From a virus (lineage: Duplodnaviria > Heunggongvirae > Uroviricota > Caudoviricetes), in the IMG/VR virus record IMGVR_UViG_2703718854_000001: a stretch of DNA of 35,878 bases. One strand, given 5' to 3'. The notes beneath the pieces are model-generated. The model was not told the DNA's origin. It saw nothing but the letters and a program-made list of their open reading frames with translations, and searched no databases. The position numbers and the translations under genes were made by a program. Below, one piece after another: positions 1 to 35,878 of the stretch (positions within the stretch are counted from its first letter, which is position 1; every line of letters starts with the position of its first letter).

Positions 1-333
1 ATGGGGGAAGGTGAGGTGAATAAAATAGCTGCTATATCATTAATTAGTGTTTTTCTTATGTCTGGTTGTGCTGTGCATAATGATGAGACAAGTATCGGTA
101 AATTTGGCCTTGCATATAAAAGTAATATTCAGCGTAAACTCGATAACCAATACTACACCGAAGCCGAAGCTTCTTTAGCCAGGGGTAGAATATCTGGTGC
201 AGAAAATATAGTAAAAAATGATGCAGCCCATTTCTGTGTTACTCAGGGCAAAAAAATGCAAATAGTTGAGCTGAAGACAGAAGGTGTAGGATTACATGGT
301 GTCGCTCGTCTGACATTCAAATGTGGAGAGTGA
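1..333 (+). CDS. Putative small lipoprotein in the host flank; may be truncated by the window start (alternative GTG start at 16)
   Basis: ORF runs from base 1; the N-terminus has a lipoprotein-type signal (hydrophobic stretch ending LMSGC); function not recognised. Confidence 0.45.
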   Translation: MGEGEVNKIAAISLISVFLMSGCAVHNDETSIGKFGLAYKSNIQRKLDNQYYTEAEASLARGRISGAENIVKNDAAHFCVTQGKKMQIVELKTEGVGLHGVARLTFKCGE

Positions 334-490
334 GAATATTTTTTGGTAAGCGTCAAATATGTGCGTTCTGGTTGTGCTTAGCCGGAACCTGTGCGAGCAC
401 GATGCCGTTACGTGAAAGGCATCGTGCTATGAAGGGAGATTCTATCGATGTGGTCAATGGAAGACGGTGACCAGGGATAGGGCTTATGCA

Positions 491-518
491 TAAAAAATAA
501 GCCCGTGTAAGGGAGATT
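491..518. repeat. attL core, 28-bp direct repeat identical to the attR copy
   Basis: taaaaaataagcccgtgtaagggagatt occurs exactly at 491-518 and 34345-34372; it contains the 27-bp core I recall for P2 att. Confidence 0.8.
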
Positions 519-597
519 TAGGGTGTCACCAGTAGGGGCTTTCAACGGTACAATGCGGGTTTGAGCGGCATAAATTACCACTGAAAGCCCTTAAACG

Positions 598-1611
598 TTA
601 CTCTACTGTGGACACTGTGTGGACACTCTCGGCCTCAGTACCACCTCTTAGCGGATTAAGAGAAATGGCGTCCTGAAGGTACTCTGGCGCAAAATGAGCG
701 TAAACCATAGTTTGCTCAATCCGCGTGTGACCTAGTATCCGTTGTAGCGTGATAATACTTCCTCCATTAATCATGAAATGAGTGGCAAAGCTGTGCCTTA
801 GTGCATGTGTGGCTTGCCCCATTGGCAAATCCGGTTTTATTGCTTTCATTGTTCGTCTGAAGCGAGGGTAATCAGCATCAGGGAATAAAAAACCTCGTTT
901 GTTATCCGCGATCATTTTGGCAACAGCCTCTGAGATCGGGACGGTGCGTGGTTTGTTTGTTTTCGTTTTAACAAACGTGACGCGGTTATGGATGATATTT
1001 TCTGCTTTCAAACGAGCTGCTTCTCCCCAACGTGCTCCAGTACTCAGGCAAAGAATCGCAATCTTTTTGTTGTCGCCGTCAAGAGCAGCAAGCAGTAAGG
1101 CAATTTCTTCCTGCGTGAGATAGCCTGTGTCTGGTTTTTCCTCCTTAAGCCTTTTTGTCCCTCTGATAGGGTGCTCACCAAAGAATAACTCCGCTTCAAT
1201 CAGGGCTGTAAACATGCCGCTAATACATGTTAAATCACGATTGATACTCGAAGGTTTAATACCCTGACTTCTTCGGGTGGCGCAGTACTGGCTGATAAGC
1301 GATTTCGTAATTTGAAATGCGCATGGGTCATTCGTTATTTTTGTGAAGATTTCAATTTTTCCAAGATTAGATTTCCCATGCTCTTCGTGTTTACCCTTTA
1401 AATCCCACCAGATCTGTGTCAGCTCCGACAGACGTCGCTTGTCTGTTGGTTTTGATAGCCATTCTTTATTGTGGTGGTTGTACAACGTGTATTTCTCGAA
1501 AGCGACAGCTTCGCTTTTCTTATCAAACTTCCTACGGATGCGTTTTCCATTACGTCCAGTAGGGCGGATGTCCACTTCATATCGACCATCATCGAGTTTT
1601 TTGATTGCCAT
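598..1611 (-). CDS. int: Tyrosine integrase, P2 Int-like (337 aa)
   Basis: 337 aa, same length as P2 Int; C-terminal catalytic signature (ARWGEAARL, HALRHSFATHF, MVYAHF); sits beside attL. Confidence 0.93.
   Translation of the reverse strand: MAIKKLDDGRYEVDIRPTGRNGKRIRRKFDKKSEAVAFEKYTLYNHHNKEWLSKPTDKRRLSELTQIWWDLKGKHEEHGKSNLGKIEIFTKITNDPCAFQITKSLISQYCATRRSQGIKPSSINRDLTCISGMFTALIEAELFFGEHPIRGTKRLKEEKPDTGYLTQEEIALLLAALDGDNKKIAILCLSTGARWGEAARLKAENIIHNRVTFVKTKTNKPRTVPISEAVAKMIADNKRGFLFPDADYPRFRRTMKAIKPDLPMGQATHALRHSFATHFMINGGSIITLQRILGHTRIEQTMVYAHFAPEYLQDAISLNPLRGGTEAESVHTVSTVE
607..625. promoter_or_regulatory. Candidate Int arm-type binding sites: two direct TGTGGACAC repeats 10 bp apart
   Basis: Direct repeats at 607-615 and 617-625; a similar TGTGG(T/A)C pair lies on the other arm at 34286-34304. 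Confidence 0.35.
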
Positions 1612-23377: not shown

Positions 23378-25306
23378 ATGAGCACAAAATTCAGAACCGT
23401 TATCACCACTGCCGGTGCAGCAAAGCTGGCAGCGGCAACCGCGCCGGGAGGGCGGAAGGTCAACATTACCACGATGGCCGTCGGGGATGGCGGTGGTAAA
23501 TTGCCTGTCCCGGATGCCGGACAGACCGGGCTTATCCATGAAGTCTGGCGACATGCGCTGAACAAAATCAGCCAGGACAAACGAAACAGTAATTATATTA
23601 TCGCAGAGCTGGTTATTCCGCCGGAGGTGGGCGGTTTCTGGATGCGTGAGCTTGGCCTGTACGATGATGCGGGAACATTAATTGCCGTGGCGAACATGGC
23701 CGAAAGTTATAAGCCAGCTCTTGCCGAAGGCTCAGGGCGTTCGCAGACCTGTCGCATGGTCATCATCGTCAGCAGTGTGGCCTCAGTGGCGCTGACCATT
23801 GACACCACAACGGTGATGGCGACGCAGGATTACGTTGATGACAAAATTGCAGAGCATGAACAGTCACGACGTCACCCGGACGCCTCGCTGACCGCAAAAG
23901 GTTTTACTCAGTTAAGCAGTGCGATCAACAGCACGTCTGAAACACTGGCCGCAACGCCGAAAGCGGTAAAGGCCGCGTATGATCTTGCTAACGGGAAATA
24001 CACTGCGCAGGATGCCACCACAGCGCGAAAAGGCCTTGTCCAGCTCAGTAGCGCCACCAACAGCACGTCTGAAACGCTCGCCGCAACACCAAAAGCGGTA
24101 AAGGCAGCATATGACCTTGCTAACGGGAAATACACTGCACAGGACGCCACCACAGCGCGAAAAGGTCTTGTCCAGCTCAGTAGCGCCACCAACAGCGATT
24201 CTGAAACGCTTGCAGCAACGCCAAAGGCGGTTAAGACAGCGTATGACCTTGCTAACGGGAAATACACTGCGCAGGATGCCACCACGGCGCGAAAAGGCCT
24301 TGTCCAGCTCAGTAGCGCCACCAACAGTGATTCTGAAACGCTGGCCGCAACACCAAAAGCAGTGAAGTCTGCCTATGACAATGCTGAAAAACGTCTTCAG
24401 AAAGATCAGAACGGTGCGGATATTCCGGGAAAGGATACCTTCACGAAAAATATCGGTGCCTGTCGTGCTTATAGCGGCGCTTTGAGCACTGAAGCCGGAA
24501 ACTGGACAACCGCTCAGTTTATTGAATGGCTGGATTCCCGTGGTGCATTTAATCATCCGTACTGGATGTGCAAATGTTCATGGTCATACGGCAATAATAA
24601 AATTATTACCGATACTGGCTGTGGAACTATTCATCTTGCAGGTTGCGTTATTGAGGTTATGGGTAATAAAGGTGCCATGACCATCCGTGTAACAACACCA
24701 AGCACTTCCACCGGAGGCGGCACCACTAACGCTCAATTCACTTATATTAATCATGGTGATGCTTATGCTCCTGGCTGGCGACGAGACTACAACACGAAAA
24801 ACCAGCAGCCTGCATTTGCTTTAGGGAAAACAGGAAGCACTGTCGGAAATGATAAAGCTGTTGGCTGGAACTGGAATAGCGGGGTCTATCAAGCAAATAT
24901 TGGTGGCGCATCGACATTAATCCTCCATTTCAATATGAGCGAGGGGAGTTGCCCTGCCGTACAGTTCCGTGTGAATTATAAGAACGGCGGTATTTATTAT
25001 CGTTCAGCGCGTGATGGTTATGGATTTGAGGCTGACTGGTCAGAGTTTTACACCACAACCCGCAAACCCTCTGCGGGAGATGTTGGTGCATATACCAAAG
25101 ATGAATCGGATTCTCGCTATGTACGAGATATTCGCCTGGGCACACGTGTTGTTCAGACTATGCAAAAAGGTGTGATGTATGAGAAAGCAGGGCACGTAAT
25201 TACCGGGCTTGGTATTGTCGGTGAAGTCGATGGTGATGACCCCGCAGTATTCAGACCAATACAAAAATACATCAATGGAACATGGTATAACGTCGCACAG
25301 GTGTAA
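23378..25306 (+). CDS. H: Tail fiber protein H (642 aa) with an internal repeat array and a divergent C-terminal receptor-binding region
   Basis: Conserved P2-like N-terminus; 44-aa repeats; lower-GC C-terminal third. Confidence 0.85.
   Translation: MSTKFRTVITTAGAAKLAAATAPGGRKVNITTMAVGDGGGKLPVPDAGQTGLIHEVWRHALNKISQDKRNSNYIIAELVIPPEVGGFWMRELGLYDDAGTLIAVANMAESYKPALAEGSGRSQTCRMVIIVSSVASVALTIDTTTVMATQDYVDDKIAEHEQSRRHPDASLTAKGFTQLSSAINSTSETLAATPKAVKAAYDLANGKYTAQDATTARKGLVQLSSATNSTSETLAATPKAVKAAYDLANGKYTAQDATTARKGLVQLSSATNSDSETLAATPKAVKTAYDLANGKYTAQDATTARKGLVQLSSATNSDSETLAATPKAVKSAYDNAEKRLQKDQNGADIPGKDTFTKNIGACRAYSGALSTEAGNWTTAQFIEWLDSRGAFNHPYWMCKCSWSYGNNKIITDTGCGTIHLAGCVIEVMGNKGAMTIRVTTPSTSTGGGTTNAQFTYINHGDAYAPGWRRDYNTKNQQPAFALGKTGSTVGNDKAVGWNWNSGVYQANIGGASTLILHFNMSEGSCPAVQFRVNYKNGGIYYRSARDGYGFEADWSEFYTTTRKPSAGDVGAYTKDESDSRYVRDIRLGTRVVQTMQKGVMYEKAGHVITGLGIVGEVDGDDPAVFRPIQKYINGTWYNVAQV
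23887..24390 (+). repeat. In-frame tandem repeat array within H: 132-bp unit, about 3.8 copies
   Basis: Unit starts at 23987, 24119 and 24251 (period 132 bp); encodes KGLVQLSSATNS(T/D)SETLAATPKAVKAAYDLANGKYTAQDATTAR. Confidence 0.8.
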
Positions 25307-34024: not shown

Positions 34025-34243
34025 ATGTTTCATTGTCCTTTATGCCAGCATGCCGCACATGCGCGTACAAGCCGCTATATCACTGACACGACAAAAGAGC
34101 GTTATCACCAGTGTCAGAACGTGAATTGCAGCGCCACGTTCATCACTTATGAGTCGGTACAGAGATACATCGTGAAGCCGGGAGAAGTCCACGCCGTGAG
34201 GCCGCACCCGTTGCCGTCAGGGCAGCAAATTATGTGGATGTAA
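34025..34243 (+). CDS. ogr: Late gene transcription activator Ogr (zinc finger), 72 aa
   Basis: CPLCQH...CQNVNC zinc finger; 72 aa from the third in-frame ATG; last phage gene before attR. Confidence 0.85.
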   Translation: MFHCPLCQHAAHARTSRYITDTTKERYHQCQNVNCSATFITYESVQRYIVKPGEVHAVRPHPLPSGQQIMWM

Positions 34244-34253
34244 TTACAAACAG

Positions 34254-34281
34254 AAAGCCCCTCAGTCGAGGGGCTTTTTTT
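34254..34281 (+). terminator. Rho-independent terminator after ogr
   Basis: gcccctc-agtc-gaggggc hairpin followed by ttttttt. Confidence 0.7.
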
Positions 34282-34344
34282 GTCGATGTGGTCAATGTGT
34301 GGACTTGACCAGAAATAAATCCTTTTATTTCAATTTGTTGTACG

Positions 34345-34372
34345 TAAAAAATAAGCCCGTGTAAGGGAGATT
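34345..34372. repeat. attR core, 28-bp direct repeat identical to attL; it is the 3' terminator end of cyaR
   Basis: Exact repeat of 491-518. Confidence 0.8.
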
Positions 34373-34432
34373 ACACAGGCTAAGGAGGTGGTTCCTGGTA
34401 CAGCTAGCATTTTATGGGTTATGTTTTTCAGC
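34346..34432 (-). ncRNA. cyaR: CyaR (RyeE) Hfq-dependent small RNA
   Basis: The reverse complement of 34346-34432 reads GCTGAAAAACATAACCCATAAAATGCTAGCTGTACCAGGAACCACCTCCTTAGCCTGTGTAATCTCCCTTACACGGGCTTATTTTTT, which matches the E. coli CyaR sequence as I recall it, including the terminator. Confidence 0.8.
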
Positions 34433-34500
34433 GAAACGGATGATAACCTTAATAAATGCAGCTGTATGTGATCGGTTTCTAAGAATTTTCCATCCGGGAA
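34433..34500 (-). promoter_or_regulatory. cyaR promoter region with a candidate CRP half-site
   Basis: On the minus strand, a TATCAT -10-like element lies just upstream of the CyaR 5' end, with TCACA-containing CRP-like sequence further upstream; CyaR is known to be CRP-activated. Confidence 0.3.
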
Positions 34501-34516
34501 AAATAATCGAAATTAA

Positions 34517-35878
34517 TCACTTACCGTGTGGGTTACGCGTGGTTTCCCCGGAGAAATTACGCATCAGCAGAGCGTAATTGAGCTCAAGATCCTGCGGGAC
34601 CGGGAGCCACACAGTATAACCATCGCCTGGTGCGACCGGCATCGCTTCACCTTTGGCGTTTTCCATGTGCTCAAGGGTAAAGTTAATGTTGCCTTGCGGC
34701 GTCATCAGCTCAAGGCTGTCGCCAACGGAGAATTTATTTTTCACCGCTACCGCCGCGAGGTCCCCCTTGCGCTCACCGGTAAACTCACCAACAAACTGCT
34801 GGCGGTCAGAAACTGAATAACCGTATTCGTAGTTCTGATAATCGTCGTGAGTATGACGACGCAGGAAACCTTCGGTATAGCCACGATGCGCCAGACCTTC
34901 CAGAGTTTCCAGCAGGCTGGTATCGAACGGTTTGCCCGCAGCGGCGTCATCGATAGCTTTACGGTAAACCTGTGCGGTGCGTGCGCAATAGTAGAAAGAT
35001 TTAGTACGGCCTTCGATTTTCAGCGAATGCACGCCCATTTTGGTCAGGCGTTCTACATGGGCGATGGCGCGCAGATCTTTCGAGTTCATGATGTAAGTGC
35101 CGTGCTCATCTTCAAACGCGGTCATATACTCGCCCGGACGCTGGGCTTCTTCGATCATAAACACTTTGTCGGTTGGCGCGCCGATACCCAGCGTCGGCTC
35201 AACATTTTGCACCGGAATCGGCTCGTACTTGTGTACGATGTTGCCAACGTCATCTTCTTTCCCTTCCTGGACGTTGTACTCCCAGCGGCAGGCGTTGGTG
35301 CAGGTACCCTGGTTCGGATCGCGCTTGTTGATATAGCCAGAGAGCAGGCAGCGACCGGAGTAGGCCATGCACAGTGCGCCGTGAACGAAGATCTCGATCT
35401 CCATATCCGGCACCTGATTGCGGATCTCTTCAATCTCTTCCAGCGACAGCTCGCGAGAGAGGATCACGCGGGTCAGGCCCATTTGCTGCCAGAATTTCAC
35501 CGTCGCCCAGTTTACGGCGTTAGCCTGCACCGAGAGGTGGATCGGCATTTCAGGGAAGTGCTCACGCACCAGCATAATCAGCCCTGGATCGGACATAATC
35601 AGCGCATCCGGCCCCATTTCCACCACCGGTTTCAGGTCACGGATAAAGGTTTTCAGCTTGGCGTTGTGCGGTGCAATGTTGACCACGACATAAAACTTTT
35701 TCCCCAGCGCGTGGGCTTCATTGATGCCGAGCTGAAGATTTTCGTGGTTGAATTCGTTGTTGCGCACACGCAGGGAGTAACGCGGCTGGCCCGCATAAAC
35801 AGCATCTGCGCCATAAGCGAAAGCGTAACGCATATTTTTCAGCGTTCCCGCCGGGGAAAGGAGTTCCGGTTTAAACAT
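34517..35878 (-). CDS. yegQ: Peptidase U32-family protein YegQ (TrhP), 453 aa, complete; start codon at the window edge
   Basis: 453 aa, N-terminus MFKPELLSPAGTLKNMRYAFAYGADAVYAG as recalled for E. coli YegQ; adjacent to cyaR as in E. coli. Confidence 0.88.
   Translation of the reverse strand: MFKPELLSPAGTLKNMRYAFAYGADAVYAGQPRYSLRVRNNEFNHENLQLGINEAHALGKKFYVVVNIAPHNAKLKTFIRDLKPVVEMGPDALIMSDPGLIMLVREHFPEMPIHLSVQANAVNWATVKFWQQMGLTRVILSRELSLEEIEEIRNQVPDMEIEIFVHGALCMAYSGRCLLSGYINKRDPNQGTCTNACRWEYNVQEGKEDDVGNIVHKYEPIPVQNVEPTLGIGAPTDKVFMIEEAQRPGEYMTAFEDEHGTYIMNSKDLRAIAHVERLTKMGVHSLKIEGRTKSFYYCARTAQVYRKAIDDAAAGKPFDTSLLETLEGLAHRGYTEGFLRRHTHDDYQNYEYGYSVSDRQQFVGEFTGERKGDLAAVAVKNKFSVGDSLELMTPQGNINFTLEHMENAKGEAMPVAPGDGYTVWLPVPQDLELNYALLMRNFSGETTRNPHGK

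What the first reader, a model, noticed from the sequence alone, without database searches (positions are those of the whole stretch)
396..518. Left host flank carries vestiges of an earlier P2-like attachment arm
Just outside attL, the flank has tcgatgtggtcaatg (445-459), an 8-nt spacer, then tgaccag (468-474). This is the same arrangement found on the phage ogr-side arm inside the prophage (34283-34297 and 34306-34312). There is also aagggagatt (432-441), identical to the last 10 nt of the att core, and an 11-bp perfect hairpin (396-406 with 418-428). This suggests the site was previously occupied by a related prophage that left an arm remnant, consistent with repeated integration and decay at cyaR.
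Basis: seen in the sequence. Interest (0 to 1): 0.45.

Follow-up and report, generated by a model that had tools for sequence, protein, structure and literature searches.

The report
Fossil P2 attachment arm beside cyaR
The "host" DNA just outside this P2 prophage carries a decayed copy of the phage's own integrase-binding arm; nearly all sequenced E. coli share it, so it is an old, probably inert leftover of an earlier P2-type insertion at a known phage landing site.

Summary
TCGATGTGGTCAATG-N8-TGACCAG lies at 445-474, 16 nt left of the attL core (491-518). It recurs at 34283-34312 in the prophage's ogr-side (P) arm, left of the attR core. That core is at 34345-34372, not 34347-34374. The shared stretch starts on the first base of the Int P-arm binding site annotated in phage P2.

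The same arm occurs in P2-like phages that use other cores and hosts, so it is phage-native. Some E. coli alleles keep 12 more nt, and there the similarity runs through the IHF region up to the core (47 of 64 columns).

The flank is not strain-specific. It is present in about 99% of 5,426 complete E. coli genomes, mostly next to an empty site. It varies as much as the neighbouring spacer, and its spacer GAAGACGG was not seen in any sampled phage arm.

It is therefore an old, apparently neutral fossil of a P2-type arm. K-12 has it beside the younger ogrK-D' remnant.

Two cited features are not supported as parts of it: aagggagatt is polymorphic with no core similarity upstream, and the hairpin has no phage counterpart.

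One wider possibility is suggestive only: the yegR island may be bounded by a degenerate second core near yegS.

The finding is ordinary in kind, with modest interest.

The parts
445..459 (+). Vestigial first Int arm-type site of a P2-type P arm (TCGATGTGGTCAATG, containing TGTGGTCA).
   Evidence: Identical to 34283-34297 and found nowhere else in the window. It starts on the first base of the Int 'P arm' protein_bind feature of P2 AF063097, 24293-24320. The P2-type arm repeat consensus is tgTGGaCa (PMC3448106). The 15-mer is intact in 13 of 14 E. coli haplotypes.
460..467 (+). Position of the second arm-type repeat, here decayed (GAAGACGG instead of TGTGGACG or TGTGGACT).
   Evidence: In 120 IMG/VR loci, TGTGGACG occurred 68 times, in every context listed within a phage arm, nearly always just after the ogr terminator. 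GAAGACGG occurred 51 times, always in the host flank of attL.
468..474 (+). TGACCAG, shared with the phage arm at 34306-34312.
   Evidence: Seen. It is polymorphic in E. coli: TGACCAG, TTACCAG, TCACCTG and TGACCTG all occur.
475..490 (+). Remains of the IHF-site region of the arm, shortened in this allele by a 12-nt deletion.
   Evidence: Two longer host alleles (GGATCAATCCGTCTCTATGGTTTATGCAC and GGATCAATCCGTATTTACAGCTTATGCAT) align with the P2 IHF region at 19-20 of 33 columns, matched by 13-21 of 5000 shuffles. The window allele alone is not significant. The E1-type allele is in 145 genomes, 63 of them with an empty site.
491..518 (+). attL core, a copy of the 3' half of the cyaR terminator.
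   Evidence: 28-nt identity with 34345-34372. Identical to the P2 attP core.
432..441 (+). AAGGGAGATT, identical to the last 10 nt of the core. Not assignable to the vestige.
   Evidence: Repeat found. It reads AAGGAGGATT in 7 of 14 haplotypes. There is no similarity to the left 18 nt of the core upstream. Some 10-mer of the core turns up in 100 of 20000 shuffled flanks.
396..428 (.). Stable inverted repeat in the yegR-cyaR spacer. It is a host feature of unknown role and has not been shown to derive from phage.
   Evidence: It has no T tail and the scan calls no terminator. It is kept in all sampled E. coli, with changes in the loop and at the top of the stem.
16..333 (+). yegR, a small lipoprotein gene that is the left neighbour of the vestige.
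   Evidence: RefSeq annotation of matching genomes. The family PF27694 is narrow. Kluyvera has no yegR between yegS and cyaR.
34283..34312 (+). Functional counterpart: the Int arm-type sites of the resident prophage's P arm (TGTGGTCA and TGTGGACT, 11 nt apart).
   Evidence: 97.7% identical to P2 over 34200-34372.
34313..34344 (+). IHF-site region of the resident prophage's P arm.
   Evidence: Corresponds to the P2 IHF protein_bind feature 24324-24357.
34345..34372 (+). attR core, the 3' half of the cyaR terminator.
34349..34434 (-). cyaR (RyeE) sRNA gene. Its terminator is the attachment core.
   Evidence: Rfam RF00112, 100.7 bits against a gathering score of 47, full length.
598..1611 (-). 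Integrase gene of the resident P2-like prophage. The P' arm Int sites TGTGGACA are at 607 and 618.
   Evidence: ORF list, motif scan and P2 annotation.

Best explanation
Window 445-490 is a molecular fossil: a decayed copy of the P (ogr-side) arm of a P2-type attachment site.

**Inferred history**
1. A P2-type phage once integrated at the cyaR terminator, using the same core and the same orientation as today's prophage.
2. Deletions later removed the prophage and left its P arm stuck to the core on the yegR side.
3. The first Int arm-type repeat survived. The second repeat mutated. The IHF region was eroded, with a further 12-nt deletion in this window's allele.
4. The relic is now in nearly all sequenced E. 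coli and drifts like the surrounding spacer.
5. When a new P2 integrates at the core, the fossil ends up just outside attL.

The fossil probably does nothing today. One arm half-site without its partner or the IHF site is unlikely to assemble Int.

**Shown and inferred**
- Shown: the homology, its phage-native direction, its near-universal presence in E. coli, and the absence of any detectable extra constraint.
- Inferred: the integration-then-deletion history, and the lack of function.
For: - **Position and significance.** The exact 15-mer plus 7-mer sit at the same side and orientation relative to the core. 0.04 matches are expected by chance. Local alignment without the cores gives z = 7-8.
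- **Match to a known binding site.** The shared stretch begins on the first base of the Int-binding 'P arm' feature annotated in the P2 record and covers it. It contains TGTGGTCA, one mismatch from the published arm repeat tgTGGaCa (PMC3448106).
- **Phage-native direction.** The arm is conserved in P2-like phages that have different cores (Wphi, L-413C, fiAA91-ss, P24A7b). It is also present in Yersinia phage and Xuanwuvirus sequences and matched by Klebsiella phages. The host flank is absent after the identical cyaR core in Kluyvera and Enterobacter.
- **Homology reaches the core.** Longer host alleles carry it through the IHF region: 19-20 of 33 columns, matched by 13-21 of 5000 shuffles. 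The whole arm matches at 47 of 64 columns.
- **Age.** The flank is in 5382 of 5426 genomes at 94-100% identity. It lies within about 0.7 kb of cyaR in 4565. The host spacer GAAGACGG was found only in host flanks, and no sampled arm carried it.
- **No extra constraint.** About 13% of sites vary, both inside the vestige (4 of 30) and in the adjacent spacer (about 14 of 104). The core does not vary apart from the length of its A run.
- **Precedent at this site.** K-12-type strains have this vestige, then a truncated core, then D'-ogrK, a P arm, the core and cyaR. cyaR is listed as a P2-type insertion site in E. coli W, K-12 and B (PMC3032704).
Against: - No prophage-bearing ancestor or intermediate has been seen.
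- No other Escherichia species could be examined for the flank. E. albertii, E. fergusonii and E. marmotae were not recovered by the one genome-collection scan, and the E. ruysiae locus is occupied on the cyaR side. The age and the ancestral allele are therefore unresolved.
- In the window's own allele the homology is only about 30 nt, and its 475-490 segment is not significant alone.
- The sequence left of 445 shows no convincing similarity to the ogr terminator.
- The constraint test rests on 14 haplotypes.
- Binding of Int to the surviving half-site was not tested.
Confidence: 0.78

Rival explanations
1. The similarity is recent. Resident or transient P2 prophages repeatedly copy part of their P arm into the host flank, by gene conversion or aberrant excision, so there is no single old remnant.
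For: The site is often occupied: in about 16% of complete genomes the two halves of attB lie far apart. The 15-mer is still perfectly identical to modern arms.
Against: The host copy has its own spacer, GAAGACGG, in every host context sampled (51 of 51, plus one GAAGATGG). That spacer was in none of the 69 phage-arm copies. The flank is present at empty sites across divergent haplotypes. It carries host-specific deletions relative to the arm.
Confidence: 0.07
2. The stretch is kept because it does something for the host or the phage. It could be an accessory Int-binding site that helps make this the preferred P2 site. It could also be a 10-codon ORF (ATG at 449) behind the Shine-Dalgarno-like AAGGAGG present in half the alleles.
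For: The 15-mer is intact in 13 of 14 haplotypes. The allele AAGGAGGATTCTATCGATG offers a Shine-Dalgarno sequence and a start codon. Both the host and phage copies read as 10-codon ORFs (sequence).
Against: Variable-site density equals that of the neighbouring spacer. The second arm repeat and the IHF region are gone. TGACCAG is polymorphic. The micro-ORF changes sequence and length between alleles: MWSMEDGDQG, MWSMEDGYQR, and about 24 aa in the E1 type. The spacing to the core differs from that in attP (16 nt against 32 nt).
Confidence: 0.08
3. The direction is reversed. P2-type phages took this part of their arm from the E. coli flank by imprecise excision, so the host copy is the original.
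For: In attL the flank sits exactly where the P arm sits in attP. An aberrant excision could in principle swap them.
Against: The same arm, including the paired tgTGGaCa repeats and the IHF region, occurs in peduoviruses with unrelated cores and other hosts. The repeat also occurs twice in the P' arm. The host flank is confined to Escherichia/Shigella among the cyaR loci recovered.
Confidence: 0.04
4. The similarity is chance resemblance of short motifs.
For: The matches are short.
Against: 0.04 matches are expected for the 15-mer even with 2 mismatches allowed. Local alignment gives z = 7-8. Position and orientation relative to the core are the same. There is independent anchored similarity in the longer alleles.
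Confidence: 0.01

Closest known systems
The ogrK-yegZ (ogr-D') cryptic P2 remnant of E. coli K-12 at the same site. (Barreiro & Haggard-Ljungquist 1992 is cited from memory because the paper was not available. The remnant is listed as 'ogr-D'' in PMC3032704 Table 2.)
   Same: Both are leftovers of a P2-type prophage at the cyaR core, produced by deletion of the int-proximal part. Both keep the ogr-side arm attached to the core.
   Different: The K-12 remnant is about 630 bp. It still has ogrK, part of gene D and an intact P arm, and it is present in only some strains. The vestige here is about 30-46 nt, has no gene, is decayed, and is present in about 99% of E. coli, including K-12, where it lies just outside the younger remnant.
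The P arm of P2 attP (Int arm-type sites plus an IHF site).
   Same: Same first 15 nt as the annotated Int site, same TGACCAG, same orientation, and abutting the same 27-28-nt core.
   Different: Only one of the two arm repeats survives. The IHF region is deleted or decayed. The distance to the core is shorter. There is no ogr terminator upstream.
Phage and island integration at the 3' ends of tRNA and sRNA genes, with accumulation of degenerate att repeats. The sdsR locus in Salmonella is one example (PMC3333887).
   Same: An sRNA terminator is used as attB. Foreign DNA is inserted repeatedly downstream, while the RNA gene's 3' end is regenerated by the element.
   Different: Here the evidence for the outer, older att copy near yegS is only suggestive.

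Membership tests
Functional P2-type attP P arm | Two direct arm-type repeats (consensus tgTGGaCa) one helical turn apart. | tested here: not met
   Only TGTGGTCA at 449 is present. The second position reads GAAGACGG. The phage arm has TGTGGTCA and TGTGGACT at 34287 and 34298. Consensus from PMC3448106.
Functional P2-type attP P arm | An IHF-binding region between the arm repeats and the core. | tested here: not met
   Window 475-490 shows no significant similarity to the P2 IHF region. The longer host alleles keep a degraded copy.
Functional P2-type attP P arm | Lies immediately 5' of the 27-nt core, in the same orientation. | tested here: met
   445-490 abuts the core at 491-518. The orientation matches 34283-34372.
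Functional P2-type attP P arm | Binds the Int N-terminal domain. | not testable with these tools
   Needs EMSA or footprinting.
Prophage remnant (cryptic prophage fragment) at an att site | Sequence homologous to phage DNA, adjacent to the attachment core. | tested here: met
   Phage-native direction.
Prophage remnant (cryptic prophage fragment) at an att site | Bounded by a second (outer) copy of the att core. | tested here: inconclusive
   ATAAAAAGTCAGTTCAGGTATGGGGATT lies near yegS (L003:1846-1874), about where E. hormaechei and Kluyvera have the core sequence. Its fitting score is reached by 5 of 1000 shuffles of the whole spacer and 3 of 5000 shuffles of the orthologous 60 nt. BLAST against 1 Mb of P2-like loci finds nothing. 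Stringent local alignment is not significant.
Prophage remnant (cryptic prophage fragment) at an att site | Presence or absence varies among strains. | tested here: not met
   Present in 5382 of 5426 genomes. It is effectively fixed, so it behaves as core-genome spacer.
CyaR/RyeE sRNA (context: identity of the attachment site) | Match to the Rfam RF00112 covariance model above its gathering score. | tested here: met
   100.7 bits against 47, full length, 34349-34434 on the minus strand.

The most novel reading that the evidence does not exclude
The whole Escherichia-specific interval of about 1.07 kb between yegS and cyaR may be the carcass of one ancient P2-type integration. The interval holds an AT-rich spacer, yegR, a truncated second lipoprotein gene, the hairpin and the arm fossil. 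On this reading it is bounded by a degenerate core (with P'-arm-like sequence) next to yegS and by the live core in the cyaR terminator. yegR would then be a domesticated phage cargo gene found in nearly all sequenced E. coli.
Probability: 0.3. Interest if true: 0.4.

Novelty: new member of a known kind. Interest (0 to 1): 0.27.

Why it matters
- **Annotation.** It shows that even the "empty" preferred P2 site of E. coli is not pristine host DNA. Prophage-boundary callers and att-site definitions at cyaR should expect arm-like sequence outside attL. Several public "phage" records already include this host flank.
- **Evolution.** It gives a dated layer in the history of a phage landing site at an sRNA terminator: an old, apparently fixed fossil, the younger K-12 remnant, and live prophages.
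- **Open hypothesis.** It raises the testable idea that yegR arrived as phage cargo.
- **Limits.** It does not reveal a new mechanism.

Tried and rejected
- **aagggagatt as the right end of an older core: rejected.** The left 18 nt of the core have no counterpart in 396-431 (p = 0.45). The full-core fit is weak (158 of 5000 shuffles for this allele, 485 of 5000 for the K-12 allele). The 10-mer is polymorphic.
- **Hairpin 396-428 as a relic of the ogr terminator: not supported.** Only a permissive alignment hints at it. It has no T tail and no terminator is called.
- **One genome-collection scan with a 41-nt cyaR pattern.** It returned only 8 loci: E. coli, Shigella, E. ruysiae, Enterobacter hormaechei and Kluyvera. 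The other Escherichia species were missed, so the age of the vestige beyond E. coli/Shigella is open.
- **YegR homologues as a route to outgroups.** The divergent ones lie at unrelated loci. The syntenic ones were E. coli assemblies, 97-98% identical to E. coli loci, one with visible homopolymer-length errors.
- **The PHROG hit for YegR (phrog_21109, E = 7.5e-75).** I discounted it as probably caused by host flank included in prophage records.
- **BLAST of the yegS-yegR spacer against about 1 Mb of P2-like loci: no weak hits.** Arm-repeat scans of the E. coli and E. hormaechei islands found nothing at the expected positions.
- **Barreiro & Haggard-Ljungquist 1992.** The paper could not be read. 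I could not check whether it already noted arm similarity in the attB flank.

Full report
**1. What the window is**

- The right flank holds yegQ/trhP on the minus strand and the sRNA gene cyaR (34349-34434, minus strand; Rfam RF00112, 100.7 bits).
- The 28-nt sequence TAAAAAATAAGCCCGTGTAAGGGAGATT occurs at 491-518 and at 34345-34372. It is the P2 attP core and forms the 3' half of the cyaR terminator.
- Between the two copies lies a P2-like prophage. Its integrase gene is at 598-1611 on the minus strand. Over 34200-34372 (the 3' end of ogr, the P arm and the core) it is 97.7% identical to P2.
- The left flank is yegR (16-333) plus a 157-nt spacer (334-490).
- The order on the plus strand is: yegR, spacer, attL core, int ... 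ogr, P arm, attR core, cyaR, yegQ.

**2.

- TCGATGTGGTCAATG occurs only at 445-459 and 34283-34297. With up to 2 mismatches allowed, 0.04 matches are expected by chance.
- TGACCAG follows 8 nt later in both places.
- AAGGGAGATT is at 432-441 and 509-518, and the inverted repeat is at 396-428.
- With the cores removed, local alignment of 334-490 against 34150-34344 gives z = 7-8 under three scoring schemes.
- One coordinate needs correcting: the right core is 34345-34372.

**3. What the shared motif is**

- The P2 GenBank record marks 24293-24320 as the Int binding site of the P arm. It marks 24324-24357 as the IHF site and 24356-24383 as the core.
- The annotated Int site reads TCGATGTGGTCAATGTGTGGACGTGACC. 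The host match therefore starts on its first base.
- P2-type arm sites are direct repeats with consensus tgTGGaCa (PMC3448106).
- The prophage arm has TGTGGTCA and TGTGGACT 11 nt apart. The P' arm has TGTGGACA twice (607 and 618). The host flank has only the first repeat, TGTGGTCA at 449.
It is intact in the phage and decayed (GAAGACGG) in the host.

**4. The direction of descent is phage to host**

- The arm is conserved in many P2-like phages whose cores differ: Wphi, L-413C, fiAA91-ss, P24A7b and pro483. Yersinia phage and Xuanwuvirus sequences also show the repeats and the ATAAATCC...TTTATTTCA region, and Klebsiella phages match the same part of the query.
- In Kluyvera and Enterobacter hormaechei the cyaR sequence and core are identical to E. 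coli, but the DNA after the core is unrelated to the E. coli flank.

**5. The homology reaches the core in other alleles**

- 145 of 5,426 E. coli genomes carry an allele with 12 extra nt between TGACCAG and the core. In 63 of them the site is empty, so this is a host allele.
- A second long allele appears in IMG/VR prophage flanks.
- The segment was aligned globally to the P2 IHF region, anchored by TGACCAG on one side and the core on the other. The two long alleles match at 19 and 20 of 33 columns, reached by 21 and 13 of 5000 shuffles.
- The whole arm matches at 47 of 64 columns.
- The window's allele has the 12-nt deletion. That explains why its motif sits closer to the core than in the phage arm.

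**6. The vestige is old, near-universal and apparently neutral**

- Window 1-520 is found at 94-100% identity in 5,382 of 5,426 complete E. coli genomes.
- A synthetic empty site (300-518 joined to 34373-34600) is matched in one place, at 80% coverage or more, in 4,565 genomes.
- Among 120 IMG/VR loci containing the motif, the spacer TGTGGACG occurred 68 times, in every context listed within a phage arm and nearly always just after the ogr terminator. GAAGACGG occurred 51 times, always in the host flank of attL. No sampled phage arm carries the host version, which argues against recent copying.
- In 14 clean E. coli haplotypes, about 13% of sites vary both inside 445-474 (4 of 30) and in 341-444 (about 14 of 104). 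The core varies only in the length of its A run.
- The sample is small, but it gives no sign of special constraint.

**7. K-12 shows two layers**

K-12-type strains, and the GenBank record "Phage TP", read as follows: yegR, spacer with the vestige, truncated core TAAAAAAATAAGCCCGTGTA, D', ogrK, intact P arm, core, cyaR. The fossil and the known ogr-D' remnant are therefore separate events at the same site. cyaR is already listed as a P2-type insertion site in E. coli W, K-12 and B (PMC3032704).

**8. Features that do not belong to the vestige**

- AAGGGAGATT is one of two alleles. AAGGAGGATT is in 7 of 14 haplotypes.
- The remaining 18 nt of the core have no counterpart upstream of it (p = 0.45). 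Some 10-mer of the core appears in 0.5% of shuffled flanks.
- The hairpin 396-428 is real and stable (-24.6 kcal/mol). It has no T tail, is not called as a terminator, and shows no convincing similarity to the ogr terminator.

**9. A wider and weaker lead, outside the window**

- In Kluyvera sp. 142359, yegS starts 73 nt from the core, with no yegR in between.
- In E. hormaechei B56, a 1.9-kb island lies between the core and a second, 22-of-23-identical core copy next to the yegS upstream region.
- In E. coli, close to the corresponding place in the yegS upstream region (L003:1846-1874), the sequence ATAAAAAGTCAGTTCAGGTATGGGGATT fits the core. Its score is reached by 5 of 1000 shuffles of the whole spacer and by 3 of 5000 shuffles of the 60-nt orthologous stretch.
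- A permissive local alignment continues into P'-arm-like sequence (z = 4.1-5.7). A stringent alignment is not significant, and BLAST against P2-like loci finds nothing.
- I chose the permissive scoring after seeing the pattern, so this stays a hypothesis. The hypothesis is that the yegR island as a whole is the carcass of one ancient P2-type insertion.
- A related point concerns a 170-nt indel just after yegR. It is the 5' part of a second lipoprotein gene, which is intact beside yegR homologues at an unrelated locus in other bacteria (tblastn 40% identity over 37 aa, E = 2e-6).

**10. Verdict**

- The remnant is an apparently fixed, ancient and probably inert fossil shared by nearly all sequenced E. 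coli. It is not a peculiarity of this strain.
- Two of the four cited features are not part of it.
- Prophage remnants at this site are known, so this is a further and older example.
- I could not check whether the original papers on the P2 attachment sites already noted it.

Noticed in passing
Between window 333 and 334 (insertion point). Seen in L004:334-503 and L003:2494-2663.: Some E. coli strains have 170 extra nt right after yegR. They encode the N-terminal ~37 residues of a second lipoprotein, which is intact (110 aa) directly downstream of yegR homologues at an unrelated locus (L021:2822-3154). The window's allele has lost this piece.
   Followed up: partly
L013 (Enterobacter hormaechei B56), 499-2425.: A 1.9-kb island lies after cyaR. 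It is flanked by the P2-type core and a second, 22-of-23-identical core copy next to the yegS upstream region. It holds two ORFs (321 and 199 aa) with no Pfam match. This looks like an independent case of insertion at the cyaR core in another genus.
   Followed up: partly
L003:1846-1945 (yegS-yegR spacer of E. coli, just left of the window's start).: A possible degenerate copy of the att core, followed by P'-arm-like sequence, lies about where Kluyvera and E. hormaechei have the core sequence. It is significant only under position-specific or permissive tests.
   Followed up: partly
Window 479-504.: GGGCTTAT (flank) and ATAAGCCC (core) form an 8-bp inverted repeat that overlaps the descending stem and U-tract of the cyaR terminator. 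The longer alleles keep it with changed bases (GGTTTAT, GCTTAT). It could offer an alternative fold in cyaR read-through RNA. A published plasmid assay reports about 41% read-through at the CyaR terminator (PMC9765468).
   Followed up: no
Window 449-481 and 34287-34319.: Both the host vestige and the phage arm read as 10-codon ORFs (MWSMEDGDQG and MWSMCGLDQK). In half of the E. coli alleles the host copy is preceded by AAGGAGG, 9 nt upstream of the ATG. Length and sequence are not conserved between alleles, so this is probably a coincidence.
   Followed up: partly
Public records ON470606.1 (vB_EcoM-720R8), AY639599.1 ('Phage TP') and PHROG phrog_21109.: These 'phage' entries contain E. coli chromosomal flank (gatR, yegS, yegR, the spacer; or the K-12 ogr-D' locus with yegQ labelled 'putative protease'). 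The full-length PHROG match to YegR (E = 7.5e-75) may likewise come from host flank in prophage records; I did not check the PHROG's members.
   Followed up: partly
Window 34298-34305.: The resident prophage's second P-arm repeat is TGTGGACT. P2 itself and 68 of the 69 phage-arm copies in the IMG/VR sample have TGTGGACG (the other has CGTGGACG). That sample was restricted to arms ending in TGACCAG.
   Followed up: no
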